From an uncultured bacterium (lineage in GTDB: Bacteria > Edwardsbacteria > CAYGWX01): DNA of 64,000 nucleotides. Every line of letters starts with the position of its first letter. The first letter of the stretch is position 1. Below the pieces are notes generated by a model that worked only from the letters and a program-made list of their open reading frames with translations, was not told the DNA's origin and ran no database searches. This document shows positions 1 through 57,796 of the stretch, in pieces. The DNA lies in assembly GCA_964353855.1 (NCBI GenBank), contig CAYGWX010000005.1:7120-71119 (forward strand). The letters run 5' to 3'. The translations under genes and the position numbers were made by a program.

Positions 1-687
1 CTACGCATCCTTCCGCTCCAGCTTGAAGCTCCCTTCCTGAAGCTCCAGAATCTTGGCCAGGGCGCTCTCGCCCTCCTCCTTCGCCCACTTGGCCTTGGCG
101 ATGGCCCCGTTCTTGAACTGGACCACCCCGAAGGTGCCCCGCCGGGCCAGGTCAATGCGCCCGGTCCAGCCCCCGGCCAGGAACATGTCCACCAGCCCCT
201 GGATGGACGTGGTCTGCAGGGCCCCCTCCATCACCGGCTCGTGCTCCCCTAAGAGCATGCGGATGGACTCCGCTTCCAGGAGGCAGTCCGAGACGGCCTT
301 CATCAGATGCTTGCGGACCTCGGCCTTGACCAGGTAATGCCGGCAGCCCAGCAGGAGCCCCCGGGCTCGGCTCGCGAGGTCCCCCTTGGAGGTGAGGAAC
401 AGAAACGGGATGTTCCGGGCTTCGGGGTGCGCCTTGACCTTTTCGCAGAAGGCGAATCCGTCCATCCTCGGCATCAAGATATCCGAGACGATGAGGTCCG
501 GAAATCCCTTCTCCCCCCAAGCCGGATCGGTGTACATCCTGATCAGGCCCGCCTGCCCGTCCTCGGCGCCAACGACCGTGTACCCCGCCTCGCCGAGCTC
601 CTTGAGCACCAGGTTGCGGGTGAACTCATCGTCCTCAACCACCAGGATGGTTGGGCCCTGGGGGTCGGAGGATTCTTCTTTGGTCAC
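1..687 (-). CDS. Response regulator: N-terminal CheY-like receiver (REC) plus C-terminal DUF4388 (PATAN-like) domain
   Basis: REC motifs present: VVEDDE, phospho-Asp context SDILMP, LFLTSKG, then K. The C-terminal ~100 aa match the DUF4388 pattern also seen at 32926-33585. Probable GTG start at 685-687. Confidence 0.7.
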   Translation of the reverse strand: MTKEESSDPQGPTILVVEDDEFTRNLVLKELGEAGYTVVGAEDGQAGLIRMYTDPAWGEKGFPDLIVSDILMPRMDGFAFCEKVKAHPEARNIPFLFLTSKGDLASRARGLLLGCRHYLVKAEVRKHLMKAVSDCLLEAESIRMLLGEHEPVMEGALQTTSIQGLVDMFLAGGWTGRIDLARRGTFGVVQFKNGAIAKAKWAKEEGESALAKILELQEGSFKLERKDA

Positions 688-777: not shown

Positions 778-1449
778 TCAGGTGCGCTCCGCGCAGAAGT
801 TCCCCTCGGTCAGGCAGAGGATCGCGGTCAGGGCCTCCTGGCTTTCGATCCGCCCCCAGGCCACCCGGGATATCCGCCCTTCCGAGAATTCCACGCGCCC
901 TTCCACCCCTCTCCGGGAAACGCTCAGGATTCCGCTCCTCTCTCCCACCAGGAACTGGTCCACCAGGCTCTGGATGGAAACCTGGGTGAGGTCGCCCTCG
1001 ACCTTTCCGGAGTGCTCGGCCAGGAGGACCCGGGTCTGGCCCGCGTCCACCAGGCACTGGCTGACGACCCGGAGCAGGTCCATCTTCCGGAACGGCTTGA
1101 CGAGATAGCGCTGGCAGCCCAGGAGAAGACCCTCGGCCCGGTCGGCCACCCCGGAGCGGACGGTGAGGAAGAGGAAGGGGATGGGCCGGGTGCGGGGGTC
1201 CCCCTTGACCCGCTTGCAGAATTTGAAGCCGTCCATCTTGGGCATCATCACATCCGAGAGAATGAGCCCCGGCAGCCCTCCGCTCCCCCACAGAGACGGG
1301 TCACCCATCCTGGCCAATGCCTCTTCTCCGTCGGGCGCGCCTACCGTCTTGAACCCGAACTCCTCGAGGGCCCGCTGGATGACCTGGCGGACGGAAACCT
1401 CGTCCTCGACGACCAGGATCGTGGACTCTTTGGCTCGGAATGCGTTCAC
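778..1449 (-). CDS. Response regulator REC-DUF4388, tandem paralog of the 1-687 gene
   Basis: Same architecture (ILVVEDEVSVR, SDVMMPKMDG, FLFLTVRSG) with a C-terminal DUF4388-like region. Overlaps the SPFH stop by 4 nt. Confidence 0.7.
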   Translation of the reverse strand: MNAFRAKESTILVVEDEVSVRQVIQRALEEFGFKTVGAPDGEEALARMGDPSLWGSGGLPGLILSDVMMPKMDGFKFCKRVKGDPRTRPIPFLFLTVRSGVADRAEGLLLGCQRYLVKPFRKMDLLRVVSQCLVDAGQTRVLLAEHSGKVEGDLTQVSIQSLVDQFLVGERSGILSVSRRGVEGRVEFSEGRISRVAWGRIESQEALTAILCLTEGNFCAERT

Positions 1450-2351
1450 TGCCCTCCCAGGATCAAGGGCAGCCCGTTCTTGGGGTTGCCAATGACCACG
1501 ATCTTGGAATTCGGGGAAGCGGCCAGTTTCTCCGTGGCCTCGATCCCTTTCCAGTCCAGAAGTCCCTGGGTGACTCCGGCGGACACGATGGCCTGGAAGT
1601 CCGCGATTCCCTTGGCCTCGATACGCTTGCGGTCGGCCTCCGACCTCTCCTTATCCAGGACGAACTTCATCCGCTCGGCCTGCTGCTCCGCGGCCATCTT
1701 CTCGTTGATCGCCTCGGACACGGCCTCGGGCAGGGTAATGCTCCGCAGCAGGACGCGCTCCAGGATGAAGCCCCGGGCGAGCAAGGAATCGGAGAGCTCC
1801 TTGTGGATCTCCGAGGCCACCAGCTCGCGGCTCGAGGTGTAAAGCGCCTTGGCCTCGTACTTCACGGTGGCCCCCCGGCTGGCTGAGCGGGTCTGGGGGA
1901 TGAGGAAGACGTTGTCGTAATCTTTTCCGATGCCCTTATAAACTGAGACCGCCCGGTCCGGGGAGACGTGGTAGAGCACGGAGACGTCCAGGTGGACGTT
2001 CAAGCCCTCCGATGAAGGAACATTCATGATCTCCTGGACCTGGGTCGTCCGGGTGGGGGTCATCACCAGTTTGGAGAACGGGATGACGAAGTTCAGCCCT
2101 GGATACTTGGGGCCGGAGACCCAGCCGTAGAAGTCCATCACGCCCACGTGCCCGGCCGGGACCGAGCGCACGAAGGTCCCGAGAAGCCCGATCACCAGGG
2201 CGGCGAGGAAAGCCCGCAGGCCCCAGCGACGGAATTTGACCGGATCCACAAAGCCCCGGACCACTGCGGATTGAGCCGAGGCACTCCTTGCCGCGCTCAG
2301 GACAGCCCAGGCCACGACCCCGAGCACGAGCCAGAACCAGAACCACTGCAT
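1446..2351 (-). CDS. SPFH/Band-7 (prohibitin/HflKC-like) membrane protein
   Basis: N-terminal TM helix followed by an SPFH core (GHVGVMDFYG, long PHB-domain-like stretch, coiled-coil EQQAERMKF). RBS AAGAGGAG lies 7 nt upstream of the ATG. Confidence 0.8.
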   Translation of the reverse strand: MQWFWFWLVLGVVAWAVLSAARSASAQSAVVRGFVDPVKFRRWGLRAFLAALVIGLLGTFVRSVPAGHVGVMDFYGWVSGPKYPGLNFVIPFSKLVMTPTRTTQVQEIMNVPSSEGLNVHLDVSVLYHVSPDRAVSVYKGIGKDYDNVFLIPQTRSASRGATVKYEAKALYTSSRELVASEIHKELSDSLLARGFILERVLLRSITLPEAVSEAINEKMAAEQQAERMKFVLDKERSEADRKRIEAKGIADFQAIVSAGVTQGLLDWKGIEATEKLAASPNSKIVVIGNPKNGLPLILGGQ

Positions 2352-2391: not shown

Positions 2392-3381
2392 TTAAGTGAG
2401 GTCGAACTCCCCGGCCAGGGGGAAAAGACCGAAGATGCCCCCGGTGTGCAGGAAGATGATCCGCTTTCCGAAACGCCGGTGGTCCTTCGCAAGTTCATGG
2501 GCCATGCCGTAGAAGGCCTTTCCCGTATAGACGGGGTCCAGGACCACGCCCTCCGTACGGGCCACTTCCCGAATCAACGCAAGCTCCTCGGGCCGGGTGA
2601 GGGCGTAGCCTCTTCCCACATAGCCGTCCTGGATCTCGATTTCTGAAGGAGTGAAGTCGAAGGATAACTTAAACCGGGCCCGCACTTTCTCCACGATGCC
2701 CGAGATGGTCTTCACGAAGTACTCCCGGTTGTCGCAGACGTTCACCCCCACGACCCGCCAGGGTAAGTCCAGAAGTTTGACCCCCAAAATGAGTCCCGCT
2801 CCGGTCCCCCCCGAACCGCAGGCGTAAATAAAAGTGGCTTCGCCTGACGGGACCTGATGTGCCAGTTCCTCAACCGCCTTGATGTAGCCCCAGGCCCCCA
2901 CCTCATCCGAGCCCCCCTCCGGAATCACATACGGTTTTCTTCCTGCTTTTAAAAACTCCTCTGCGGCCAGGCCCATGACCTCCATCCTGCGGCTGTATTC
3001 CTCGGGCGTGATCCAGCGGATCTGTGCACCCGCCAGCTTATCCAGGAAGATGTTCCCTTCAACGGAAGGAGGATTTTGCGGGTCCGGGACGCGCAAGAAC
3101 AGAAGGGAATCGAGGCCCCGTTGTCGTGCCGCGAATGCCACGGCCCGGCAGTGGTTGGATTGTCCCCCTCCGCAGGTGAGCACAACGTCGCACTCCCGGG
3201 CGGAAGCCTCGGCGATGAGGAACTCCAGCTTGCGAACTTTGTTCCCGGAGAGCTCCGCCCCGGTCATGTCGTCGCGCTTGACCCAGAGCTCCACGCCCAG
3301 CCGGTCGGACATCCGGTCCAGCCGCTGCAGGGGCGTGGGAAGGTGGGCCAGCTCGATGCGGGGCGGGTAAGGAAGCATCAT
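2392..3381 (-). CDS. PLP-dependent D-cysteine desulfhydrase / ACC deaminase family enzyme
   Basis: Family-typical KRDD, SGNKVRKLEFL (PLP lysine region) and GGxQSNH motifs. The ORF-track N-terminal 71 aa were trimmed to the internal MMLPYPP start, which overlaps the upstream stop in an ATGA arrangement. Confidence 0.75.
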   Translation of the reverse strand: MMLPYPPRIELAHLPTPLQRLDRMSDRLGVELWVKRDDMTGAELSGNKVRKLEFLIAEASARECDVVLTCGGGQSNHCRAVAFAARQRGLDSLLFLRVPDPQNPPSVEGNIFLDKLAGAQIRWITPEEYSRRMEVMGLAAEEFLKAGRKPYVIPEGGSDEVGAWGYIKAVEELAHQVPSGEATFIYACGSGGTGAGLILGVKLLDLPWRVVGVNVCDNREYFVKTISGIVEKVRARFKLSFDFTPSEIEIQDGYVGRGYALTRPEELALIREVARTEGVVLDPVYTGKAFYGMAHELAKDHRRFGKRIIFLHTGGIFGLFPLAGEFDLT

Positions 3382-4055
3382 CTCACGAAGCTCAAAAAGT
3401 TCCTGAGCACCCGGTCGGCACCCGTGGGGGCGGAGGGAATCTGCGCCAGGAGAACCTCGGGCTCGAGCCCGTGCTGCCGCAGTTTCTCCCACTCGTCGAG
3501 CACGCACTTCCGCCCTCTCTCGATCTCGATCTCGGGATGGAACTGCAAGCCCACCACGGGCTTGGTCTTGTGCACCATCGCCTGGATCGCACAATCCCGG
3601 GTGCGCGCAACGGCTTCGAATCCCTCCGGGAGCCGGCTGACCTGATCATAGTGCGCGGACATGACCCAGAAGGGATTCGGCAAGCCGTGGAACAGCGGGT
3701 GGGGTTTGGTGACCTCGACCGAGGTATAGGTCATCTCCGGGACCAGCGCCTTGGAAACGGCCCGGCGACCGTGAAGCGCACGAACGATGAGCTGGTGGCT
3801 GTAACAGACCCCTAACATGGGCTTGCCGCTTTCAAAGAACCTTCGGACATAATCAAGGAGGGGCTCAAGCCAGGGGTAGTCTTCGGTGACCGAATACTCC
3901 GAGCCCGTGAGCACCAGGATTCCAACCTCCAGGGGATCGGGGTAGCGATCCTTGAACCCGTTGATATAGATGCACTCGTGATCCGGCCCGAAGTCCCGTT
4001 TGAACCGGGGATAGCTTTCCTGGGTCTTGCTCAGGTCAATGATGTGAATGCGAAT
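3378..4055 (-). CDS. Class I glutamine amidotransferase-like protein
   Basis: Catalytic GVCYSHQ cysteine motif and the LQFHPE histidine motif. The open frame continues upstream of the track's GTG (3914) to LKIRIHIIDL with no ATG/GTG/TTG. GGAGG sits 7 nt before an ATT at 4053-4055; a CTG at 4059-4061 overlaps the upstream TGA stop. Confidence 0.6.
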   Translation of the reverse strand: MRIHIIDLSKTQESYPRFKRDFGPDHECIYINGFKDRYPDPLEVGILVLTGSEYSVTEDYPWLEPLLDYVRRFFESGKPMLGVCYSHQLIVRALHGRRAVSKALVPEMTYTSVEVTKPHPLFHGLPNPFWVMSAHYDQVSRLPEGFEAVARTRDCAIQAMVHKTKPVVGLQFHPEIEIERGRKCVLDEWEKLRQHGLEPEVLLAQIPSAPTGADRVLRNFLSFVR

Positions 4056-4057
4056 CT

Positions 4058-4270
4058 TCAGACCTCCTCGAGAAACGCCTGGGGCGCTGACGGGGCGCAG
4101 CCTTGAGGATGGCCGGACATCCAGTATTTTGGATTTTTGCTTTCAGACTTTAAATAGCCGGGGTCGGCCGAGATGACCTCTTGTAATTCGGATTGCACGG
4201 GCCCTAATCCAAGCCCTAACAATCCCAGGAAAGCCATTCCCGCAGCTTTCAGAAACGAACGTCTCTCCAC
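4058..4270 (-). CDS. Small (70 aa) protein with a twin-arginine (Tat) signal peptide
   Basis: MERRSFLKAAGMAFLGLLGLGLG is a canonical RRxFLK Tat motif plus h-region. The GTG start overlaps the pmbA stop by 1 nt. Tightly coupled within the tldD/pmbA operon. Confidence 0.5.
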   Translation of the reverse strand: MERRSFLKAAGMAFLGLLGLGLGPVQSELQEVISADPGYLKSESKNPKYWMSGHPQGCAPSAPQAFLEEV

Positions 4271-5607
4271 TAGTCCCCCTTCGTGAGCTTGAAGTTCCCG
4301 ACCTTGACCAGCGGAACCAGAAGATTGGCCCCGTACTGCTGGTACAGGGACAGGTCTTTCCCGACCATCTCGACGTGGCTGAGCATCTCCAGAATGCTTT
4401 GCTCGATGCGCATATCCCGCACGGCCCGGGTGATCTTGCCGTTCTCGATCAGGAAGGTGCCGTCCCGGGTCGTCCCGGTCACCTCGGTCTTCATCGGATT
4501 CAGGTAGTTCACGTACCAGAAATGCGTGATCAGGATACCCCTGTCCGTGGAGGCGATGATCTCCTCCCGCGTCTTTTCCCCCGGCATCATCACTAAATTC
4601 TTCGGGTATGGCCCGAAGGTGTTCCCGGGCTGGAGCGCGTGGCCGGTGGAGGTTACCTTGGCCTTGTTCGCATAATAGGTGTCAAAGACTACCTCCTTGG
4701 CTGCGCCCTTCTCGATCAAAACGACCTTTTGCTTAGGGACGCCTTCGTAATCAAAGGGCCGTCCGATCTGGAGAGGGTGATAGGCGTCGTCTACCAGGGT
4801 CACGTTCTCCCCGGCGATTTTCTGACCGATCTTCCCGGCCATGAAACTGCGGCCGGAGAGAAAGGTCTTGGCCCCGAATCCAAGGAATCCCAATAGGAGC
4901 AGCAGATGCCCCAACGCCCCCTCCTCCAGGATGACCGTGTAGAGGCCTTCCGGGAGTTCTACTTTATTTTTAGACCTCCGGGCCTTCTCTGCTGCAAGCT
5001 TGGCGCATGCTTCCACCCCCAGCTTGGCGGCATCCCGCCCCACCGCCTGGCCCCAACCCGAGGTGGTGTCATCCGCGCTCACGGTCAGGGAAAACGAGGC
5101 CGCGGTATCGCGAAAGCTCCGGTTCACGCCCAGGGAATTCACTACGGCCAGAAGCGTGATCGTCTGGTCGAATGCTCCGAAAGTCGTAAACCCGGAGGCT
5201 TTCGCCTCTTTTACCGCAATCCCAGCAGCCCTGGCCCGGTCATCCGGCGAGAACTTGGCAGTCCGTTCATTGTAACCGGGGAGCGAAGGCGGGTTCACGG
5301 AGGAAGGGTGGGCGAGGCTCACGAAATCCTTGTCCTCAGGGCTTTCCCTCGCAATGCTGCCGGCTTGCTCCACGACCCTCGTGAGCGAAGCGTCGTCCAG
5401 GGCATTGGTCTGGGCGATCCCGATGCGCTTGCCCAGGACCGTCCGGACGGTCAGGGTATGATCGTGCTGTTCAAGGTTCTGGTGGATGGCGTTTTCAGCA
5501 AACCGAGTCAGCGCCCGGGTGGTCTCCTCGAGGACCGCCTCGGTCTGGTCCGCCTTGGAGAGAGACAGGGCTTGATGGAGGATCTCGAGGGCTTTTTTCT
5601 CGTCCAC
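4270..5607 (-). CDS. pmbA: PmbA/TldE family metalloprotease partner subunit
   Basis: 445-aa TldD/PmbA-fold protein lacking HExxxH, immediately downstream of tldD with 0-nt spacing. Confidence 0.8.
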   Translation of the reverse strand: MDEKKALEILHQALSLSKADQTEAVLEETTRALTRFAENAIHQNLEQHDHTLTVRTVLGKRIGIAQTNALDDASLTRVVEQAGSIARESPEDKDFVSLAHPSSVNPPSLPGYNERTAKFSPDDRARAAGIAVKEAKASGFTTFGAFDQTITLLAVVNSLGVNRSFRDTAASFSLTVSADDTTSGWGQAVGRDAAKLGVEACAKLAAEKARRSKNKVELPEGLYTVILEEGALGHLLLLLGFLGFGAKTFLSGRSFMAGKIGQKIAGENVTLVDDAYHPLQIGRPFDYEGVPKQKVVLIEKGAAKEVVFDTYYANKAKVTSTGHALQPGNTFGPYPKNLVMMPGEKTREEIIASTDRGILITHFWYVNYLNPMKTEVTGTTRDGTFLIENGKITRAVRDMRIEQSILEMLSHVEMVGKDLSLYQQYGANLLVPLVKVGNFKLTKGD

Positions 5608-7053
5608 TTATGTCCCTCCCACCTTGACCTTCCGGAACCGGCACGGCGCCGCACCCTGGCCGGTCCGCATGTTCTGTCCCGGCTGGCCTTTGCCGCAGCT
5701 CGGAGTGCCCCAGACCTTCCATTCCCTCTCCCCGGCGATTCCATCTAGGGCGTTCCAAAACTCCACGGTGTTCCCGGAATAAAGCGGATTTTTGACCATC
5801 GCACCCAGCTTCCCTCCATGGATCTCGTATCCGATCTCGCAGCCCATCTTGAAACTCTCCCTCCGGTCATCGATGCTCCAGGAGGAGTTCCCAAGCATCA
5901 GGATGCCGTGGTCGGTCTCGGCGATGAGCTTCTCAAGAGAAGAAATGCCAGGGAGCAGGTTGATGTTAGTCATTCTGATCAAAGGCAGGTTCTGCCAACC
6001 CTGGGCCCGCATCGCGCCGGTGCTCTGGCGACCGATCTTCGTAGCCATCTCCCGATTCGTAAGATAGCCCGCTAAGAGGCCGTTTTTGATGAGTTCAACC
6101 CGTTGCGCCGGAACGCCCTCGTCGTCGTACCCGAAGGTTCCCAGCCCAAAGGGCGAGGTGGCATCCGCGGTGACAGTAATCAGGTCCGAGCCGTACTTGA
6201 GCTTGCCCAGCTTATCGGTCGTGGCGAAGCTCGTACCTGAGAAATTCTTCTCGGCTCCGAACACCCGGTCCAGCTCTAGAGGGTGTCCGATGGATTCGTG
6301 GATGATGAGCGAAACCGCTGGCCCGTCCAGGATGAGTATCGTAATATCCGGAAAACAATCCTTAGCTGAGAGCAGGGCCACGGCCTCCTCCCCGATCCGC
6401 TGGCATTCCTTTTCCATCGCCAATAGGCTGAGTAATTCATAGCCCCGGGTCTCGAACTGTCCTCCCCCTTGCGGGAAACTCCTTGTTCCTACTTCCCGCC
6501 GGGACTTCATCGCTGTGGCCTCGATGCCGGCTCCGGACTGATAGATCGTCTGTTCGATCTCGCTCCCTTCCGTCGAAGCGAACCAGGTCCGGGTACGGTG
6601 AAATTCTGCCGTGGCCGTAGCCTTGGTGACCCCCCTGACCTTCTGAATCAACTCATCGAGATGGGATAAAAAGGATGCCTTCTCCGACAGCGGAACCGCG
6701 AACGGATCTTTCTCAATCGCAGTGGTATGGGTTCCTGCGACCTTTCCCAGCGGAGCCAGGTGGACGGCTTCTTTCTTCAGCTTGGCGCTGGCTTTGGCGA
6801 TTTCGAGTGCCTTCTCAACCTCCCGCTTTACGCTGTCCTTGTCGGTTTCCGGCGTAGCGGCATACCCCCAAGCCCCTTCAACGAGCACGCGCACCCCAAC
6901 CCCCCGGCTTGCGGTGCGCGAGATGCCCTCCGGAGTCATTCCTGAAACGGTTAAGGACTCGTCCTCCATCTCCTCGAAACGGCAGTCGGCATAGGAAGCG
7001 CCCCGGCTTCGCGCCAGGTCGCAGGCTGAGAGGACGAGGTCCTTGGGCTCCAT
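5608..7053 (-). CDS. tldD: TldD family zinc metalloprotease
   Basis: HESIGHPLE (HExxxH) motif with glycine-rich TldD signatures. The track's 86-aa N-terminal extension was trimmed to MEPKDLVLS at 7051-7053, 2 nt after the upstream stop. Confidence 0.8.
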   Translation of the reverse strand: MEPKDLVLSACDLARSRGASYADCRFEEMEDESLTVSGMTPEGISRTASRGVGVRVLVEGAWGYAATPETDKDSVKREVEKALEIAKASAKLKKEAVHLAPLGKVAGTHTTAIEKDPFAVPLSEKASFLSHLDELIQKVRGVTKATATAEFHRTRTWFASTEGSEIEQTIYQSGAGIEATAMKSRREVGTRSFPQGGGQFETRGYELLSLLAMEKECQRIGEEAVALLSAKDCFPDITILILDGPAVSLIIHESIGHPLELDRVFGAEKNFSGTSFATTDKLGKLKYGSDLITVTADATSPFGLGTFGYDDEGVPAQRVELIKNGLLAGYLTNREMATKIGRQSTGAMRAQGWQNLPLIRMTNINLLPGISSLEKLIAETDHGILMLGNSSWSIDDRRESFKMGCEIGYEIHGGKLGAMVKNPLYSGNTVEFWNALDGIAGEREWKVWGTPSCGKGQPGQNMRTGQGAAPCRFRKVKVGGT

Positions 7054-7055
7054 GG

Positions 7056-7913
7056 CTAATCCGACAGGGTCACGCTGTGCGGGATGAGGTATATCCAGAG
7101 GGTCAAAAGCGTCCCCAGGATGGTCAGCCAGGCAAAGGCCTTGGGTCGGATGAGGTCCCGGGTGGAATCCTTCTGGAAGAGCGAGCGGTAGACCAGGATG
7201 AGCAAGACGAACCAGTAACCGAAGGCCAGGAGAGTCTTGTTGTCCGTGATGTCCCATCCAAACGGAAACCCGCTCCAGGGCGTGCCGAAGGTCTGTGCGG
7301 CCATGATCCACCCCAGGGGAAATCCCCCGATGAACAGGAACAATAAGGCCCAGAGGATCGGCTTCAAGGCCTGATGCACCGGCCGCCTGCCACCCAGGAT
7401 GTCGAAGGAGTAGAAGAAGGCCACGAGCAGGATGAACACCGCCGCGAACATGCAGAGCACGTGTCCGATGGTCACGAAAGGATGGACCACACCCTTAAAC
7501 TTGAGCAGGAAAGACTTGGATCCCGGCGCCTGGGCATCCGGCAGCGTGACCACCTGGCCCTGGGGCGTTTCGACCTGCAGGTAGTAATAAGCTCTTTGGC
7601 CTTTCTCCTGGTGCGGCACGAACCCGGAAAAGGTGTCCCTCAGCGCGACGCGCTCCATGGGTGCCCAGGAGAGGTTGCCCTGCTTCCCGATTTTATAATA
7701 TAGCTTGACGTTTCCCGGGTAAAGCGGGTTCGTGGTTGTGATGATGGCCTTGACCGGCGCGTCTCCGTCCCCGATCCATTCGCTGGTCGTGACATGCACG
7801 ATCCTGGCCCCCAGTTTTTCAACCACCATCGCCTGGCGGCGGTGCGTGGAGCCCTTGGACAGGGCAAAGAGCAGAAACACCACCACGAAGGCGATCCCGA
7901 GCTTCCATTTCAT
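7056..7913 (-). CDS. Integral membrane protein of unknown function, first gene of the tldD-pmbA operon
   Basis: N-terminal signal/TM, then a soluble domain of ~130 aa, then 4 predicted TM helices rich in W/F/G. 2-nt gap to tldD. Confidence 0.5.
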   Translation of the reverse strand: MKWKLGIAFVVVFLLFALSKGSTHRRQAMVVEKLGARIVHVTTSEWIGDGDAPVKAIITTTNPLYPGNVKLYYKIGKQGNLSWAPMERVALRDTFSGFVPHQEKGQRAYYYLQVETPQGQVVTLPDAQAPGSKSFLLKFKGVVHPFVTIGHVLCMFAAVFILLVAFFYSFDILGGRRPVHQALKPILWALLFLFIGGFPLGWIMAAQTFGTPWSGFPFGWDITDNKTLLAFGYWFVLLILVYRSLFQKDSTRDLIRPKAFAWLTILGTLLTLWIYLIPHSVTLSD

Positions 7914-8069
7914 GGGCCGACTTCTCCTAAGTTCTCACGATTCTCAAACTTATCAGTTTAACACCTTTCCCCTTGAAAAGTCAAGGGAAGTTAAGCCCGG
8001 AGTTACCTCCTGGCCTGCTTCGTCGAAGCGAGATGGAAATGGGCCGGCTGCATTTTCCACACCTTGACC

Positions 8070-8115: not shown

Positions 8116-11100
8116 ATGACTTCCGAGACCGAAACCATCGGACTCCCCAGTGAGGAAAAGGACCTGGCCTCCCTGGTCGGCAAGCGGGTCATCGAGGATA
8201 TGCTCGCGGCCATCATCGGTTATCTGCCGACCCGGGCTGCCCTGTTCGATCCCCAGGGCCGGGCTCTCGTCGAGCTCTCTCCCTGTGACTATTGCCAGGC
8301 CCTGAAAGAACGGGACGGTTCCCCGGTGTGCACCGGGTTTTACTCGTCCTTCGTACAGGATACCGCACGGACCCAGACCCCACTGGAGCGGTCTTGCCCC
8401 GGAGGCTGCCTGATGCACTCCGAGCCCGTTCTGTTCGGCGGCCACACCCTGGGCGTCCTCCTGCTCCGTCTCTCGGCTCCCCCCACGGATCCGGCCGCGC
8501 TTGCGCCCATCGCCGATGCGTTCTCTCTTCCCAGTGAGGTTTTGCTCCAAAAGGCAGGCCGGGTCCCGAACTTCCCCGAGCCTCTCGTGCTGGCTGCCCG
8601 GGACCATCTCGCTCAAACCGCACGCTTAATCCCCGAACTCTACCGGGCTGTGCTGGCCGAACGCAAGGCGCGGGAACTGGCCGCCATCCAGGCCATCGTC
8701 GCCACGGTCAGCCAGGCCAAGGACGCCAAGAGCCTGGCCAAGCGCGCCATGGAGACGATCCTGGAGCTCCTGCATCTGGAGATCGGGGGCCTCGCTTTCT
8801 ACGATTCCCAAAAGGGCGAATTGGTCACCGCCGCGATCATCGGACTTCCCCCGGAGTTGGCGGTCCATTATGCCCGGATTTCCCTCAAGACGGGTTCCGG
8901 CATCGCAGCCCAGGTCGCCAAGACCCACCAGCCTATTTTGGTGACGGATGTCTCCCAGCCTTCCTTCACGGTGGGCAATTCCCAGGAAGTGATCAAGCAG
9001 CTCCGCATCTCCTCCCTGGTGATCATGCCGCTCCTCGTAGCCGGGGAGTTCGTCGGCGGCATCGAGGTCGCGGCCCAGGGCGAGCGGCGCTTTACCCAGG
9101 AAGATCTCGACCTCATTTCCTCGGTCGCCACTCCCCTCGGCGTGGGCCTGAGGCGCCTCCGCCTGCAAGAGGACCTCCAGACCCGGAACCAGGAACTCCT
9201 GGCTTTGAACTCCATCACGGCCAGCATCAGCCGCTCCCTGAACCTCGAGGCCATCCTCCACGATTCCCTGGACAACATCATCGAGCTCTTCCAGGCCCAG
9301 GGCGGGACGCTTTATCTCGTGGACGAGGCCGGGGAACGCCTCATCCTCTCCGCCTCCCGCAATGCGCCGGACTGGTACCTGACGATGGCCGGGACCCTCC
9401 CCTTCGGCGCGGGCCTCGGCGGTAAGACCGCCAAGGCGGGCGGCCCACCCCGCGTCGGGAACATGGCCGACCTCTACCAGGACTATCCCGACATCCTCCG
9501 CCGCATGGAGGAGACCTACGGCAAAGGGGGGGAGACCCTCTATGTCGCGGCTCCCCTGCTCTCCCGGGACCGCGTCCTCGGGGTCATGCATCTCGTGTTT
9601 CGCGGGCCCCGGGAGTTCCGCCCCGAGGAGCTCGGCCTTCTCGGCTCCATCGGGAACCAGATCGGCCCGGCCATCGAGAACGCCCGGCTTTACGAATCCG
9701 AGCACCGCCGCCGGGCCCAGCTCGCCGGGCTCTCCGAGATCGTCCGGGCCCTTTCCGCGGAGCACGATCTCGGGACCCTGCTCAAGATGATCGTGACCCG
9801 CGCCGCCGAGGTCATGCACGCCCAGGCCACCAGCCTGATGATGTGGGACGAGGAGGAAGAGCATCTCCTCATCCGGGCCAGCCAGGGCCTCAGCCCGAGA
9901 TACGCTTCCGAATACCGCATTCCCCGGGAACGGACCCTGAATCTGGAGACCTCCCCCGACGGAAGGTTCGTTCCGATCATTCTCGCTGAACTCGCCGAAC
10001 AGCCCTTTGGAAAAATGGAGTTTAACAGGGAAGAAGGCCTCTGTTCGTTATTGACCATCCCCCTCGCCGGGTCCAGGACCCCAATCCATCGGGGAAGGAG
10101 GGCCGGGCTCTCCGGGCTCCTGAACATCTACAGCAAGGGCGAGCCCCGGGAGTTCCGTCCCGAAGAGGTGGAGCTGGCCGCCATCTTCGCCGACCAGGCC
10201 GCCGTGGCCCTGGACAATGCCCGCCTCCTCGCCGAGCGCGAGCGTCGCATCGCCCAGCTCGGGGTCCTGAACCAGATCAGCCAGGCGATCAGCGCCACCC
10301 TGCGCTTCGACCAGCTTCTGGATTTGATCTACTGGCAGGTCAGCCGAGTCATGGATACGGCCAACTTCTACATCGCCCTGGCCTATCCGGAGAAGAACCT
10401 CCTGACCTTCGAATATTTCGTCGAGGACCGCAAGCGTTCGGAGCGCCAGAGCCGGCAGATGGCCAACGGCCTGACCGAACACATCCTGCGCAGCCGGAAA
10501 CCCTTGCTCATCTCCGGAAACATCGCCGCAGCCTGCCAGGACCTCGGGGTCGAGCTGATGGGTCGCCTGTCTCAATCTTATCTCGGGGTTCCGATGACGA
10601 TCGGCGAGACCATCATCGGGGTCATTGCGGTGCAGAGCTATACCCGTGAAGATGCTTACGGCACGGACGACCAGGAGCTCCTGGCCACCATCGCCCACCA
10701 GGCCGCCATCGCCGTGGAGAACGCCCGGCTCTACGAGTCCACGAGCCAGCGCATGAAGGAGATCGGCATCCTCTATCGCATCGCCCAGAGCCTCTCCACC
10801 TCCCTGGACCTGGACAGCCTGCTGGCGAGCTTCCTCGAGGTCCTGAACCAGGAGCTCGGATACCGCTGGGCCATCCTGCTCCTGGTGGACAGGGAGAAGA
10901 ATGAGCTGTTCATCCGGGCCTGCCCTCCGGATTATCCCCAGGAGGTCCAGGAGAAGGTCCGGTTCAAAATCGGGGCCGAGGGGATCTCGGGGCACGTGGC
11001 CCTGACCGGCGAGCCCGTGGTCCTTTCCGACGTCACCCGGGATCCGCGCTATGCCCCCGGACTGATCCAGGCGCGCTCCGAGATCGCGGTTCCGCTGAAG

Positions 11101-12846
11101 ATCGGGGGGGAGGTCATCGGAGTCCTGGACATCGAGGACCCGGCTCCCGGAGCCTTCGGGGACCGCGACCTCCGCCTGCTCACCTCCCTCGCCGCCCAGG
11201 TGGCCATCGCCATCGAGAACGCCCGGCTCTACCAGGCCACCTCGGAGCGCGCCAAGGAGCTGGCCATCCTCTACGATATCGGGCGCAACCTTACCCTGAA
11301 CCTGGACCTGGATAGTCTCCTGGACCAGATTTTAGGCGCCATGCAGGAATCCTTCGGCTACCTGAACTGCGCCATCCTGCTCCTGGACAGGGAGAAGAAC
11401 GAGCTCTTCATCAAGGCGGCCCGGGGATACACCGAGGAGGTCATCCGGAACCGCCGCATCCGGATCGGGGAGGAGGGCATCACCGGCTGGGTCGCGGCCC
11501 GCGGGGAGCCCCTGAACGTCCCCGATGTGAGTCGGAACGGGCGCTACGTCGAGGGGGTGGTCTCCAGCCGCTCCGAGCTGGCCGTGCCCCTGCGCATCGG
11601 CCAGGAGGTGATCGGGGTCCTGGACGTGGAGAGCCAGGAGGTCGCCGCCTTCCAGGAGAAGGACCTGCGCATGCTCACCTCCTTCGCCGCCCAGGCCGCC
11701 ATCGCCATCGAGAACGCCCGGCTCTACGCCAACCTCGAGGAGCGGGTCAAGGAGCTGGACATCCTCTCCCTGATCACCGGTCGGATCAACGCCGGTATCT
11801 CCATCTCCGAGACCCTGGAGACCGTCGTGGACGAGATCCGCAAGGTCATCCCCTACGATACCGCCATCCTCTACTTCTCCGATTCCGGGGGGACGACGCT
11901 TCACCCCCAGATCGTGCGGTTGGCCTCGTCGGAATTCCCCCAGGATTACATCGACCGGCTCCGCACCTTTCCCGTGCCTTTCGGCAAGGGCCTGGTCGGG
12001 TGGTCGGCCCAGGAGAAGGAGCCCTTGAACTGCCCCAACGTCCTCCAGGACCCCCGGCGCCTTGACCTTCCCGAGACGCCCGCTCTTCTCTCGGTCCTGG
12101 CCGTTCCCTTCGTCGTGGAGCAGAAGACCATCGGGGCCCTGGCCCTGTCCCAGCTCGGAGAGCGGCGGTTCGCTTCCTCCGATCTCCGGCTCCTTCGGGT
12201 CCTGGCCGACGATTGCGCCATCGCCATCCACAAGGCCCGGCTCTTCGACGAGACCCAGCGTCTGGCCATCCTGGACGGCCTCACCGGCCTGGCCAACAGC
12301 CGGCACTTCTACAACGAGCTCAAGAAGGAGATGGAGCGCGCCGAGCGCTACAGCAAGCCTGTGTCCCTCATCCTCTTCGACATCGATGACTTCAAGAAGG
12401 TCAACGATTCCCTGGGCCACCAGGTCGGGGACAACCTGCTCCGCGAGATGGCTCAGATCCTGCCCACCCTCACGCGCAAGAGCGACCTCCTGGCCCGCTA
12501 CGGCGGGGAGGAGTTCGCCGTGTTGCTGCCCGAGACCAGCCGGGAGCACGCCCTGGCCACAGCCGAGCGCATCCGGGCCAAGGTGGAGGGCCATGTCTAC
12601 CCCGGCGTGGACCTTCCCCGGGGCCGGATGACGATCAGCCTGGGAGTCGCCACCTATCCCTACGATGCGGCCACCCACCGGGATTTCGTCCGCGCCGCGG
12701 ACATCGCCCTGTACGCCGCCAAGCGGGCCGGAAAGAACCGGGTCTTCTCCTATGAGACCTTGAGCCTCAAGCAGTCCCCCGCCCCCGGCGGGGCCGGGGG
12801 GGAGCCTGACACCGGCTACGAGTTCCGCGGCTCCCCGCCTGAATGA
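8116..12846 (+). CDS. Giant multidomain diguanylate cyclase: N-terminal Cys-containing sensor (PocR-like), about 7 GAF domains, C-terminal GGDEF
   Basis: GAF domains are delimited by recurring AIENARLYE linker helices (six ENARLY-type plus HKARLF). The C-terminus carries RYGGEEF (GGDEF A-site) with an upstream DxLT region, so the active-site motif is intact. Confidence 0.8.
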   Translation: MTSETETIGLPSEEKDLASLVGKRVIEDMLAAIIGYLPTRAALFDPQGRALVELSPCDYCQALKERDGSPVCTGFYSSFVQDTARTQTPLERSCPGGCLMHSEPVLFGGHTLGVLLLRLSAPPTDPAALAPIADAFSLPSEVLLQKAGRVPNFPEPLVLAARDHLAQTARLIPELYRAVLAERKARELAAIQAIVATVSQAKDAKSLAKRAMETILELLHLEIGGLAFYDSQKGELVTAAIIGLPPELAVHYARISLKTGSGIAAQVAKTHQPILVTDVSQPSFTVGNSQEVIKQLRISSLVIMPLLVAGEFVGGIEVAAQGERRFTQEDLDLISSVATPLGVGLRRLRLQEDLQTRNQELLALNSITASISRSLNLEAILHDSLDNIIELFQAQGGTLYLVDEAGERLILSASRNAPDWYLTMAGTLPFGAGLGGKTAKAGGPPRVGNMADLYQDYPDILRRMEETYGKGGETLYVAAPLLSRDRVLGVMHLVFRGPREFRPEELGLLGSIGNQIGPAIENARLYESEHRRRAQLAGLSEIVRALSAEHDLGTLLKMIVTRAAEVMHAQATSLMMWDEEEEHLLIRASQGLSPRYASEYRIPRERTLNLETSPDGRFVPIILAELAEQPFGKMEFNREEGLCSLLTIPLAGSRTPIHRGRRAGLSGLLNIYSKGEPREFRPEEVELAAIFADQAAVALDNARLLAERERRIAQLGVLNQISQAISATLRFDQLLDLIYWQVSRVMDTANFYIALAYPEKNLLTFEYFVEDRKRSERQSRQMANGLTEHILRSRKPLLISGNIAAACQDLGVELMGRLSQSYLGVPMTIGETIIGVIAVQSYTREDAYGTDDQELLATIAHQAAIAVENARLYESTSQRMKEIGILYRIAQSLSTSLDLDSLLASFLEVLNQELGYRWAILLLVDREKNELFIRACPPDYPQEVQEKVRFKIGAEGISGHVALTGEPVVLSDVTRDPRYAPGLIQARSEIAVPLKIGGEVIGVLDIEDPAPGAFGDRDLRLLTSLAAQVAIAIENARLYQATSERAKELAILYDIGRNLTLNLDLDSLLDQILGAMQESFGYLNCAILLLDREKNELFIKAARGYTEEVIRNRRIRIGEEGITGWVAARGEPLNVPDVSRNGRYVEGVVSSRSELAVPLRIGQEVIGVLDVESQEVAAFQEKDLRMLTSFAAQAAIAIENARLYANLEERVKELDILSLITGRINAGISISETLETVVDEIRKVIPYDTAILYFSDSGGTTLHPQIVRLASSEFPQDYIDRLRTFPVPFGKGLVGWSAQEKEPLNCPNVLQDPRRLDLPETPALLSVLAVPFVVEQKTIGALALSQLGERRFASSDLRLLRVLADDCAIAIHKARLFDETQRLAILDGLTGLANSRHFYNELKKEMERAERYSKPVSLILFDIDDFKKVNDSLGHQVGDNLLREMAQILPTLTRKSDLLARYGGEEFAVLLPETSREHALATAERIRAKVEGHVYPGVDLPRGRMTISLGVATYPYDAATHRDFVRAADIALYAAKRAGKNRVFSYETLSLKQSPAPGGAGGEPDTGYEFRGSPPE

Positions 12847-57721: not shown

Positions 57722-57796
57722 TGGTGGGCCCTCTGGGATTCGAACCCAGGACCGACGGATTATGAGTCCGCTGCTCTACCCTTGAGCTAAGGGCCC
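57722..57796 (-). tRNA. tRNA-Met (anticodon CAT); elongator type, possibly tRNA-Ile2 if lysidinylated
   Basis: The reverse complement reads GGGCCCTTAGCTCAAGGGTAGAGCAGCGGACTCATAATCCGTCGGTCCTGGGTTCGAATCCCAGAGGGCCCACCA. It has a 7-bp acceptor stem, a T-loop GGTTCGAATCC, an anticodon loop CTCATAA and an encoded CCA. The G1-C72 pair argues against an initiator tRNA. Confidence 0.85.

What the first reader, a model, noticed from the sequence alone, without database searches (positions are those of the whole stretch)
2392..7913. Translationally coupled operon: membrane protein, TldD, PmbA, Tat-signal mini-protein, glutamine amidotransferase, DcyD/ACC-deaminase-like lyase
Six genes are chained with overlaps of 0-4 nt (TAG then CC then ATG; TAGTG; ATGA). 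TldD carries its HExxxH motif and PmbA is its usual partner; both lack signal peptides. The only small ORF in the chain, a 70-aa product with a textbook RRSFLK Tat signal, sits directly after pmbA. TldD/PmbA pairs are known processing proteases for peptide substrates such as the microcin B17 precursor and CcdA. Here they are wired to a class I GATase with intact Cys/His motifs and a PLP beta-eliminating lyase. This combination is not a described pathway. It could be a maturation/export system for the small Tat protein or a small-molecule pathway.
Basis: partly seen in the sequence, partly recalled or inferred. Interest (0 to 1): 0.6.

Follow-up and report, generated by a model that had tools for sequence, protein, structure and literature searches.

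The report
TldD/PmbA protease with Tat-signal mini-protein
The six chained genes are real, but only part of the chain is a conserved unit: a TldD/PmbA protease pair always followed by a previously undescribed small export-signal protein with one invariant cysteine, while the amidotransferase and lyase are neighbours in this one lineage only.

Summary
Six minus-strand genes (2392-7913) are chained with gaps of -4 to +2 nt. One correction: the amidotransferase must start at a non-canonical ATT (4055-4053).

Comparison across 102 sources shows a conserved core of tldD-pmbA-mini-protein.
- All 22 sources whose PmbA is at least 44% identical carry the mini-protein directly after pmbA. None of about 65 loci from other TldD/PmbA clades do.
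- The family has about 65 members, all labelled hypothetical, with no Pfam model. They share an RRxF Tat signal, a disordered tail and an invariant G-x3-G-C motif.
- In Zixibacteria and Ignavibacteria the core lies between prfA and prmC, with no amidotransferase or lyase. Those two genes co-occur only in the window's own narrow lineage.
- The first gene is present in 12 of 15 informative loci. It encodes a membrane protein with a PPAD-like Ig domain and a four-helix core resembling heme-handling proteins (CcsBA, CcmF, CcmC). Some homologues are fused to a secreted M14 carboxypeptidase.

My best mechanism is inferred, not shown: the mini-protein is a Tat "hitchhiker" partner that carries the signal-less TldD/PmbA heterodimer to the outer face of the membrane. 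The main rival is that it is a dedicated peptide substrate. Interest is moderate to high. It is a new variant of a known kind.

The parts
7955..7984 (-). Promoter-like site (TTGACT, 18 nt, TAAACT, with TG) about 40 nt upstream of the first gene
   Evidence: Consensus scan. This is a pattern match only: 4 sites were found against 1.8 expected.
7056..7913 (-). Membrane protein, 285 aa. It has an N-terminal TM helix, an extracytoplasmic Ig-like beta-sandwich (about residues 28-140), and a four-helix TM core around a Trp/Gly-rich outer loop (W213-T227, WSGFPFGWDITDNKT). That loop is flanked by near-invariant H151 and H279.
5608..7053 (-). TldD-type metalloprotease subunit, 481 aa, with intact HExxxH (H252, H257), C453, K455, E260 and D262. 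No signal peptide.
   Evidence: Pfam PmbA_TldD_1st/2nd/3rd. E. coli TldD 5nj5_A matches at E = 8e-28. Invariant columns. Ligand roles from PMC5810440.
4270..5607 (-). PmbA/TldE-type non-catalytic partner subunit, 445 aa, GTG start abutting the tldD stop. No metal ligands and no signal peptide.
   Evidence: Pfam. Junction. No conserved Cys and 23 clade-specific positions.
4058..4270 (-). 70-aa mini-protein. It has a Tat-type signal (RRSFLK at 4247-4264, h-region residues 9-25), a poorly structured tail, and the conserved motif W50-M-S-G53-H-P-Q-G57-C58 (4097-4123).
   Evidence: Alignments A3 and A7: R3, R4, F6, G53, G57 and C58 are invariant over 59 sequences. About 65 family members, all hypothetical. 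An HMM hits exactly one ORF per locus, directly after pmbA. dN/dS 0.12-0.44. AF2 alone gives pLDDT 62, with only a small hairpin over the motif.
3378..4055 (-). Stand-alone class I glutamine amidotransferase-like protein, 225 aa, ATT start 2 nt after the mini-protein stop. Cys in GVCYSHQ and His-Glu in FHPE are present. It is attached to the module only in this lineage.
   Evidence: PF00117 at 6e-24. Its best NCBIfam match, PRK09065, scores 109 bits against a cutoff of 205. ATT/ATG comparison. Distribution.
2392..3381 (-). PLP enzyme of the D-cysteine desulfhydrase / ACC-deaminase-related family, 329 aa, ATGA overlap with the GATase. It is a neighbour only in this lineage.
   Evidence: TIGR01275 scores 328 bits, above the 289 cutoff. 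CuyA, XcbE, DcyD and ACC-deaminase equivalogs all fall below their cutoffs. Distribution.
1446..2351 (-). Band_7 (SPFH/HflC-like) gene, 40 nt downstream with its own Shine-Dalgarno sequence. It is probably on the same transcript and is syntenic in the same narrow lineage. It is followed by two PatA_N response regulators (778-1449, 1-687).

Best explanation
The conserved functional unit is not the six-gene chain. It is a three- to four-gene module: an optional membrane protein, then TldD, PmbA and a Tat-signal mini-protein.

Shown:
- TldD has a complete catalytic metal site and PmbA is its inactive partner. Together they should form an E. coli-type hollow heterodimeric metalloprotease.
- The mini-protein gene is fixed directly behind pmbA in every genome that has this PmbA subtype, across at least three deep lineages.
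- The mini-protein keeps only two features: a canonical twin-arginine signal and a roughly 10-residue motif ending in G-C.

Inferred mechanism: the mini-protein is a Tat "hitchhiker" (escort) subunit.
- In the cytoplasm its conserved hairpin motif docks onto the folded, metal-loaded TldD/PmbA heterodimer. This could be by beta-strand addition, with Cys58 possibly near the zinc.
- Its twin-arginine signal then takes the whole complex through the Tat translocase.
- The protease then works at the outer face of the membrane, tethered or released. Where the first gene is present, it works together with that membrane protein, whose heme-handling-protein-like ligand site and Ig domain face the same side.

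In the window's lineage this module has moved away from prfA/prmC. It now lies in front of a GATase, a DcyD-like lyase and a Band_7 gene and is co-transcribed with them. The GATase is translationally coupled through an ATT start. I regard these as neighbours, not as parts of the conserved system.
For: Co-conservation:
- tblastn and ORF tables over 87 loci, plus later loci, show the pattern.
- A mini-protein HMM hits exactly one ORF, directly after pmbA, in 21 of 102 sources. There are no hits in about 65 loci of other TldD/PmbA clades and none elsewhere in the window.
- L097 carries a G57C variant, seen by hand.

Tat features over 59 members:
- RRxF is invariant at residues 3-6.
- The uncharged stretch has a median of 17 residues, with mean hydropathy 1.9.
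- 45 of 59 have basic residues in the c-region, and 20 of 59 have AxA.
- TIGR01409 is the only model that matches.

The mature part is too short (about 45 aa) and too unstructured to need Tat for itself: AF2 pLDDT 62, pTM 0.22.

TldD and PmbA have no signal peptides. 0 of 84 TldD sequences show an upstream RR motif, and the PmbA cases are read-through artefacts only.

pmbA and the mini-protein are translationally coupled: TAGTG here, a 4-nt overlap in L007, a 3-nt gap in L091.

The membrane partner's Ig domain and Trp-rich loop face outward. Three homologues carry a Sec-signal M14 carboxypeptidase in place of a separate peptidase, so the peptidase partner of this membrane domain acts outside the cytoplasm.

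There is precedent for small Tat-signal escort subunits: the FAD-GDH gamma subunit (PMC6719666) and PaoABC (PMC4273604).
Against: - No physical evidence of a complex.
- All characterised TldD/PmbA proteases are cytoplasmic.
- Sister clades have neither a mini-protein nor a signal.
- A roughly 100 kDa passenger is near the upper range of known Tat cargo (my own knowledge).
- The membrane protein is missing next to the module in 3 of 15 loci (L007, L010, L012). It also occurs in unrelated contexts.
- There is no clade-specific Cys in TldD or PmbA that could pair with Cys58.
- E. coli TldD/E threads free N-termini of unfolded peptides and degrades them (PMC10885120). An unprotected mini-protein would therefore look like a substrate.
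Confidence: 0.35

Rival explanations
1. Dedicated substrate or precursor peptide. TldD/PmbA trim or degrade the mini-protein from its N-terminus, "pencil-sharpener" style. This either releases a small Cys-containing C-terminal peptide (RiPP-like or signalling) or controls how much of it reaches the Tat system.
For: - TldD/E remove leaders from about 70-aa precursors such as McbA. TldD/E-like genes sit in pearlin, biphenomycin and other RiPP clusters.
- The mini-protein is about 70 aa, unstructured and fast-evolving outside one short motif. It is 49% identical where PmbA is 81%.
- Its gene is adjacent to the protease genes.
Against: - The invariant part of the N-terminus is exactly the Tat recognition motif, whereas TldD/E recognition is independent of sequence. 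Destroying the leader in the cytoplasm would make the Tat signal pointless.
- No modifying enzyme is conserved with the module.
- The gene is single-copy, and its usual setting is a housekeeping rpmE-prfA...prmC operon, not a biosynthetic cluster.
Confidence: 0.25
2. All six genes form one pathway in which the GATase and the PLP lyase act on the mini-protein or on a small molecule produced by TldD/PmbA. One version is gamma-glutamyl removal followed by C-S beta-elimination on a Cys conjugate.
For: - The genes are tightly chained. The GATase has an ATT start 2 nt after the mini-protein stop, so its translation probably depends on that of the mini-protein. The GATase and lyase overlap at ATGA.
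- The order is kept in three diverged members of the lineage: window, L005 and L097, with GATase down to 69% identity.
- The GATase also matches Peptidase_C26. The lyase belongs to a Cys-directed family. The mini-protein has an invariant Cys.
Against: - There is no co-occurrence outside the one lineage, and flanking unrelated genes are syntenic there too.
- All other module-bearing genomes lack both genes at the locus.
- Distant GATase homologues lack all the partners.
Confidence: 0.1
3. Cofactor-acceptor model. The heme-handling-protein-like membrane protein attaches heme, or another ligand held in its Trp-rich outer site, to the invariant Cys of the exported mini-protein. TldD/PmbA act as maturation or turnover protease.
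For: - The four-helix core surrounds a Trp/Gly-rich outer loop flanked by two near-invariant outward-facing His, H151 and H279. That is the defining layout of these proteins (PMC10746174).
- The mini-protein has a single invariant Cys and is exported.
Against: - The loop does not match the WWD consensus WGX(phi)WXWDXRLT.
- No PF01578 hit in 40 family members. Foldseek does not list the heme-handling proteins.
- The mini-protein has no CxxCH motif and no conserved His.
- The membrane gene is absent beside the module in 3 of 15 loci and occurs without TldD elsewhere.
- c-type apoproteins use Sec, not Tat (my own knowledge).
Confidence: 0.1
4. No functional link. The mini-protein is an independent small periplasmic protein that merely shares an operon with tldD/pmbA.
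For: - Operons can hold unrelated genes. Here the module is itself embedded among translation genes.
- Nothing shows a physical or enzymatic connection.
Against: - Adjacency is 22 of 22 across phyla that otherwise share no synteny with the window. The start often overlaps the pmbA stop. The mini-protein is never found elsewhere in the loci scanned.
- When the module moved to a new genomic place in the window's lineage, the mini-protein moved with tldD/pmbA.
Confidence: 0.05

Closest known systems
E. coli TldD/TldE (PmbA) heterodimeric metalloprotease, MEROPS M103 (PDB 5NJ5)
   Same: Both are adjacent tldD and pmbA genes with the same three-domain architecture. TldD has HExxxH plus the remote Cys and Lys, and PmbA lacks the ligands. 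A hollow heterodimer that cleaves unfolded peptides is expected.
   Different: - It is only distantly related: 101 bits to 5nj5_A, and below both NCBIfam TldD equivalog cutoffs.
- It has a dedicated, co-inherited Tat-signal mini-protein, and usually a membrane protein. Neither is known for the E. coli enzyme.
- It is embedded between prfA and prmC in other phyla.
Tat "hitchhiker" small subunits: the gamma subunit of FAD-glucose/sorbitol/fructose dehydrogenases, PaoA of PaoABC, and [NiFe]-hydrogenase small subunits
   Same: Only the small partner carries the twin-arginine signal, the large catalytic partner(s) have none, and the genes are adjacent.
   Different: - Known escorts are folded domains or cofactor-bearing subunits of redox enzymes. 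This one has a mature part of only about 45 residues, predicted mostly unstructured.
- The passenger here would be a protease.
- Co-export is not demonstrated.
TIGR02811, "formate dehydrogenase region TAT target"
   Same: It is also a protein of 70 aa or less, made of a Tat signal plus a short conserved C-terminal motif and encoded next to an enzyme. The family description is from my own memory. The model is present in NCBIfam.
   Different: There is no sequence relationship beyond the signal: one member matches at E = 0.18. The motif and the partner enzyme are different.
RiPP precursor plus TldD/E processing (microcin B17; TldD/E-like genes in pearlin and biphenomycin clusters)
   Same: A short peptide gene lies next to, or depends on, a TldD/E protease.
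   Different: No modifying enzymes are conserved with the module. The leader is a bona fide Tat signal. The setting is a housekeeping operon.
Heme-handling proteins (CcsBA/CcsA, CcmF, CcmC)
   Different: - It has only 5 TM helices, with an N-terminal PPAD-like Ig domain.
- The loop motif WxGxPxGxDxTDNKT differs from WGX(phi)WXWDXRLT.
- There is no PF01578 match and no TM-His pair, and it is linked to peptidases rather than cytochrome c genes.
D-cysteine desulfhydrase / ACC deaminase-related PLP enzymes (TIGR01275) and stand-alone class I GATases (PRK09065-like)
   Same: The lyase passes the TIGR01275 subfamily cutoff. The GATase has the class I fold and triad.
   Different: Neither reaches any equivalog cutoff (CuyA 285 vs 450, DcyD 208 vs 429, PRK09065 109 vs 205), so their substrates are unknown.

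Membership tests
TldD (M103 catalytic subunit) | PmbA_TldD three-domain architecture | tested here: met
   PF01523, PF19290 and PF19289 are all above their cutoffs.
TldD (M103 catalytic subunit) | HExxxH metal motif plus the remote Cys ligand and clamp Lys (E. coli H262, H267, C454, K456) | tested here: met
   H252, E253, H257, C453 and K455 are invariant in 14 subfamily members. Their roles are taken from PMC5810440.
TldD (M103 catalytic subunit) | Score above an NCBIfam TldD equivalog cutoff | tested here: not met
   NF040952 scores 180 bits against 635. NF008006 scores 95 against 513. It is a superfamily member of a separate subfamily.
PmbA/TldE (non-catalytic partner) | Same fold, no metal ligands, encoded next to tldD | tested here: met
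   Pfam domains. No HExxxH and no conserved Cys. The genes are adjacent with a 0-nt gap. The equivalog cutoff is not reached (62 against 438).
Twin-arginine (Tat) signal peptide | S/T-R-R-x-F-L-K motif near the N-terminus | tested here: met
   The window has ERRSFLK. R3, R4 and F6 are invariant in 59 members.
Twin-arginine (Tat) signal peptide | Moderately hydrophobic h-region followed by a c-region, often with basic residues or AxA | tested here: met
   The uncharged stretch has a median of 17 residues with hydropathy 1.9. 45 of 59 members have a basic c-region and 20 of 59 have AxA.
Twin-arginine (Tat) signal peptide | TIGR01409 or PF10518 score above cutoff | tested here: inconclusive
   The window protein scores 15.8 bits against 16.7 (TIGR01409) and 15.8 against 22.7 (PF10518). 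29 of 59 and 18 of 59 members match at E <= 1.
Twin-arginine (Tat) signal peptide | Tat-dependent export | not testable with these tools
   This needs fractionation or reporter fusions in a tat mutant.
Tat hitchhiker (escort) subunit | The signal is on the small partner only, and the catalytic partners have none | tested here: met
   plus inspection of the TldD and PmbA N-termini.
Tat hitchhiker (escort) subunit | Stable complex between the escort and the passenger before export | not testable with these tools
RiPP precursor peptide | Co-conserved modifying enzyme(s) in the neighbourhood | tested here: not met
   There are none in the prfA...prmC loci. The GATase and lyase occur only in one lineage.
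RiPP precursor peptide | Leader/core architecture with a variable or repeated core | tested here: inconclusive
   It is single-copy, with a conserved 10-residue motif and variable flanks.
Heme-handling proteins (first gene) | Four-TM core fold around an outward-facing loop | tested here: met
Heme-handling proteins (first gene) | Two conserved periplasmic His flanking the loop (P-His1, P-His2) | tested here: met
   H151 and H279 are near-invariant and lie at the outer ends of helices in the model. The definition is from PMC10746174. Their equivalence to P-His1 and P-His2 was not checked residue by residue.
Heme-handling proteins (first gene) | WWD consensus WGX(phi)WXWDXRLT, or a PF01578 match | tested here: not met
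   The family motif is WxGxPxGxDxTDNKT. No PF01578 hit in 40 members.
Heme-handling proteins (first gene) | Heme binding | not testable with these tools
   This needs spectroscopy or heme staining of the purified protein.
Class I glutamine amidotransferase | PF00117 domain with the Cys-His-Glu triad | tested here: met
   PF00117 at 6e-24. GVCYSHQ and FHPE were seen in the translation. No equivalog cutoff is reached.
D-cysteine desulfhydrase / ACC-deaminase-related PLP family (TIGR01275) | Score above the subfamily cutoff | tested here: met
   328 bits against 289. The CuyA, XcbE, DcyD and ACC-deaminase equivalogs are all below their cutoffs.

The most novel reading that the evidence does not exclude
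A family of mini-proteins, each little more than a Tat signal plus a 10-residue Cys motif, escorts a signal-less, roughly 100 kDa TldD/PmbA protease out of the cytoplasm. This would be the first extracytoplasmic TldD/PmbA system and the first protease exported by hitchhiking. Once outside, it works with a new, minimal relative of the heme-handling proteins. This would give the widespread but functionally obscure TldD/PmbA family a defined envelope role in Zixibacteria, Ignavibacteria and related lineages, expressed together with the translation-termination genes prfA and prmC.
Probability: 0.3. Interest if true: 0.75.

Novelty: new variant of a known kind. Interest (0 to 1): 0.55.

Why it matters
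TldD/PmbA pairs occur in most bacteria and many archaea. Their native substrates and roles are largely unknown beyond microcin B17 and CcdA processing.

A subtype with an obligatory, co-inherited small partner gives a concrete handle on function. The partner's only conserved features are a Tat signal and a G-x3-G-C motif. It points either to export of the protease or to a dedicated natural substrate, and both ideas can be tested directly.

The associated membrane protein adds an uncharacterised family of 432 cluster representatives. These combine a PPAD-like Ig domain with a heme-handling-protein-like core, sometimes fused to an M14 carboxypeptidase.

For annotation there are three practical points.
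- The mini-protein is often not called as a gene at all (L007).
- It is sometimes mislabelled as a hydrogenase small subunit.
- The GATase is truncated by gene callers because of its ATT start.

Tried and rejected
1. A single-sequence search with the 70-aa protein found only 5 near-identical hits, which at first suggested an orphan. Distant members appeared only after reading the ORFs downstream of pmbA in relatives found through TldD and searching again with their alignment.

3. AF2 of the mini-protein alone was uninformative beyond showing that it has no globular fold.

4. I looked for cis Tat signals on TldD or PmbA in sister clades, as support for export, and found none.

5. I looked for a clade-specific Cys in TldD or PmbA to pair with Cys58 and found none.

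6. The lipobox idea for G-C is rejected. The Cys lies about 30 residues past the h-region and the -3 and -2 positions do not fit.

7. The CxxCH cytochrome c idea is rejected. There is no second Cys and no conserved His.

9. The afdb50 fold library was unavailable.

10. Literature searches for TldD with Tat signal, PrmC or Zixibacteria returned nothing relevant.

11. The organism could not be named. The window's proteins are in an unnamed NCBI MAG contig of 90,431 nt, and the best hit in the species-representative genome set is only 56% identical.

Full report
OBSERVATION

The region 2392-7913 carries six genes on the minus strand:
- a 285-aa membrane protein (7056-7913)
- TldD (5608-7053, 481 aa)
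- PmbA (4270-5607, 445 aa, GTG start)
- a 70-aa ORF (4058-4270, GTG start)
- a class I glutamine amidotransferase (3378-4055)
- a PLP enzyme (2392-3381)

The one junction that needed work is mini-protein to GATase. No ATG, GTG or TTG exists there, and the ORF lister reports only a 178-aa ORF starting 143 nt downstream. The reading frame is open from the mini-protein stop. Aligned relatives have ATG (L003, L004) exactly where the window, L001, L002, L005 and L097 have ATT, two bases after the stop. The 47 codons in between are conserved as protein. The GATase therefore starts at ATT 4055-4053, and the chain is continuous.

Pfam and NCBIfam confirm every domain call. TldD keeps H252-E-x-x-x-H257, C453 and K455. 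These correspond to the zinc ligands and clamp lysine of E. coli TldD (PMC5810440). PmbA has none of them.

The mini-ORF is under purifying selection, with dN/dS of 0.12-0.44 against 0.08-0.17 for pmbA.

The gene string continues beyond 2392. A Band_7 gene follows after 40 nt, then two response regulators. A promoter-like site lies upstream of the first gene.

WHAT IS CONSERVED

A direct search with the 70-aa protein found only five near-identical sequences. I therefore approached it through TldD.

Relatives with TldD 57-60% identical showed a different neighbourhood: rpmE-(DUF1385)-prfA-[286-aa membrane protein]-tldD-pmbA-[small ORF]-prmC, with no GATase and no lyase. The small ORFs there are an 80-aa called gene in L006 and an uncalled 60-aa ORF overlapping the pmbA stop in L007. 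Both start with an RRxF twin-arginine motif and share a W-L-x-G-x-x-R-x-G-C motif with the window protein. The upstream membrane protein in L006 is 36% identical to the window's (E = 2e-59).

I then fetched 80 loci from species-representative genomes and tabulated all partners by tblastn.
- The GATase, the lyase and Band_7 occur with tldD/pmbA only in the window's own lineage. This is L001-L005, and later L094-L098, with TldD 82-97% identical.
- Loci whose PmbA is 44-54% identical to the window's come from Zixibacteria, Ignavibacteria and an unnamed lineage. They have the prfA...prmC setting, and every one has the mini-protein behind pmbA.
- In L010 an extra 206-aa ORF lies between pmbA and the mini-protein.
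- Loci with PmbA about 36% identical (Acidobacteriota, Actinomycetota, Thermodesulfobacteriota and others) have no such ORF.

- It hit exactly one ORF in each of 21 sources, always directly after pmbA on the same strand.
- It hit nothing anywhere else, including the rest of the 64-kb window.
- L097 carries a divergent copy (G57 replaced by C) that I found by hand.

So the association is 22 of 22 for this PmbA subtype and 0 of about 65 for the others. When the module left the prfA/prmC position in the window's lineage, the mini-protein moved with it. The window has no prfA, prmC or rpmE.

The membrane gene is present upstream of tldD in 12 of 15 loci where that can be judged. It is absent in L007, L010 and L012.

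THE MINI-PROTEIN FAMILY

A profile search recovered about 65 clusters. All are labelled hypothetical, apart from a few mislabelled as hydrogenase small subunit. None has a Pfam domain.

Over 59 sequences the invariant residues are R3, R4, F6, G53, G57 and C58. Other features:
- The twin arginines sit at residues 3-4.
- The following uncharged stretch has a median of 17 residues, with mean hydropathy 1.9.
- 45 of 59 have basic residues just after that stretch, and 20 of 59 have AxA.
- The invariant Cys lies at a median position of 55, and 11-42 residues follow it.
- 42 of 59 proteins have this single Cys only.

The only library models that match are Tat-signal models. For the window protein, TIGR01409 scores 15.8 bits against a cutoff of 16.7.

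AF2 with this alignment gives pLDDT 62 and pTM 0.22. It predicts a signal helix, a disordered linker and a small hairpin over the motif.

The protein evolves fast. It is 49% identical between the window and L097, where PmbA is 81% identical.

THE MEMBRANE PROTEIN

It has no Pfam or NCBIfam family. An exhaustive search found 432 cluster representatives.

AF2 gives a confident model, pLDDT 93.7:
- an N-terminal TM helix
- a beta-sandwich at residues 28-140
- four long helices around a Trp/Gly-rich loop (W213-T227)

H151, W213, G215, P217, G219, D224 and P278-H279 are invariant or nearly so.

The beta-sandwich is homologous to the Ig-like domain of Porphyromonas peptidylarginine deiminase (profile E = 3e-9; Foldseek).

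These families are defined by a four-TM core around a Trp-rich WWD loop flanked by two periplasmic histidines (PMC10746174). The layout matches, including the two outward-facing His.

The match is incomplete, however:
- The loop does not fit the WWD consensus (PMC3884852).
- PF01578 does not hit any of 40 members.
- Foldseek does not list these families.

I therefore call it heme-handling-protein-like, not a member.

Three homologues are fusions of a Sec signal, an M14 carboxypeptidase, the beta domain and this TM core. That fixes the topology, with the N-terminal domain and the loop outside. It also shows that this membrane domain teams up with a peptidase acting outside the cytoplasm. The family also occurs in unrelated contexts.

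MECHANISM

Shown:
- a catalytically equipped TldD with its inactive partner
- an obligatory small partner gene
- a canonical Tat signal on that partner only
- no signal on TldD or PmbA
- frequent association with an outward-facing membrane protein

Inferred: the mini-protein is an escort that binds the folded heterodimer through its conserved hairpin and takes it through Tat. Small signal-bearing subunits do this for FAD-glucose dehydrogenase (PMC6719666) and PaoABC (PMC4273604).

The argument has two parts. A 45-residue unstructured tail has no need of a folded-protein exporter for itself. The M14 fusions place the peptidase partner of the membrane domain outside the cytoplasm.

Against this:
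- There is no evidence of a complex.
- All studied TldD/PmbA enzymes are cytoplasmic.
- E. coli TldD/E threads and degrades free N-termini of unfolded peptides (PMC10885120). That makes the mini-protein look like a substrate.

The substrate or precursor model is the main rival. It is weakened in three ways. The conserved N-terminal residues are exactly the Tat motif. No modifying enzyme is co-conserved. The usual setting is a housekeeping operon whose gene gaps run from a 4-nt overlap to 9 nt (L091).

A cofactor-attachment model involving the membrane protein and Cys58 is possible but thinly supported.

THE GATase AND THE LYASE

Both look functional:
- The GATase has its triad, and PF00117 matches at 6e-24.
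- The lyase passes TIGR01275 at 328 bits.

Neither reaches any equivalog cutoff. They are co-transcribed with the module, and the GATase is probably translationally coupled to the mini-protein through its ATT start.

Their association is confined to one lineage, in which the downstream Band_7 and regulator genes are equally syntenic. More distant GATase homologues have none of the partners.

COMPARISON AND NOVELTY

I found no paper linking TldD/PmbA to a Tat signal, to PrmC or to these phyla.

The protease belongs to the known M103 kind. The obligatory Tat-signal mini-protein, the heme-handling-protein-like companion and the prfA/prmC setting are new features. I rate it as a new variant of a known kind, of moderate to high interest. 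The mechanism is a testable hypothesis, not a result.

Noticed in passing
window 4053-4055 (minus strand); L001, L002, L005:3151, L097:6001; L003:2331, L004:318: The GATase starts at a non-canonical ATT codon, 2 nt after the mini-protein stop. ATT is kept in relatives down to 69% protein identity and is replaced by ATG in two of them. Gene callers therefore truncate the protein to 178 aa.
   Followed up: yes
window 7056-7913; proteins P0249, P0284, P0295; locus L088:3140-5146: The membrane-protein family (432 representatives, no Pfam model) combines a PPAD-like Ig domain with a heme-handling-protein-like four-helix core. In some members it is fused to a Sec-signal M14 zinc carboxypeptidase. 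Other members sit in unrelated contexts, for example next to AIRS-domain and PvlArgDC genes in L089 and L090.
   Followed up: partly
L006, L007, L010, L012, L038, L048, L059, L091 (e.g. L091:1021-8074): In Zixibacteria, Ignavibacteria and an unnamed lineage, tldD-pmbA-mini is wedged between prfA and prmC. It lies downstream of rpmE and a DUF1385 gene. In L091 the gaps from prfA to prmC run from a 4-nt overlap to 9 nt. This suggests co-expression with translation-termination genes. The reason is unknown.
   Followed up: partly
L010:7422-8042: An extra 206-aa ORF with a signal-like N-terminus lies between pmbA and the mini-protein gene in one Ignavibacteria MAG.
   Followed up: no
L013:8565-9464; L009:6971-8443: Two loci have a TldD of this subtype (53-54% identical) but no PmbA downstream. 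In L013 a radical-SAM-like ORF (CxxxCxxC) follows instead. In L009 the membrane gene and tldD are present but nothing recognisable follows within 7 kb.
   Followed up: no
window TldD residue Q466 (about 5656-5658); PmbA clade-specific positions: TldD position 466 is Gln in all 11 mini-clade sequences but His in 63 of 63 sequences of the other clade. PmbA has 23 clade-specific positions against 11 in TldD. Neither has a clade-specific Cys.
   Followed up: partly
L097:5786-5998: One diverged relative has ...SGYPGCCAPS, with G57 replaced by Cys next to the invariant Cys. L010 shows the same kind of variant (GGCCDH).
   Followed up: no
window 8116-12846 (+): A 1576-aa protein with many GAF domains and a C-terminal GGDEF domain is transcribed divergently from the operon. 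The same neighbour is present in L001.
   Followed up: no
window 1446-2351, 778-1449, 1-687 (minus strand): A Band_7/HflC-like gene and two response regulators with PatA_N domains continue the co-directional string. Band_7 and the first regulator overlap by 4 nt. They are syntenic in L001, L005 and L097.
   Followed up: partly
window 57725-57796 (minus strand): A tRNA gene is the only Rfam match in the window at gathering threshold.
   Followed up: no
window 5608-7311 and 2392-3594 (minus strand): The longest-ORF starts for tldD (567 aa) and the lyase (400 aa) overshoot the real starts by 86 and 71 codons, into the upstream genes. Many long antisense ORFs also appear. Both are ordinary effects of about 60% G+C.
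   Followed up: yes
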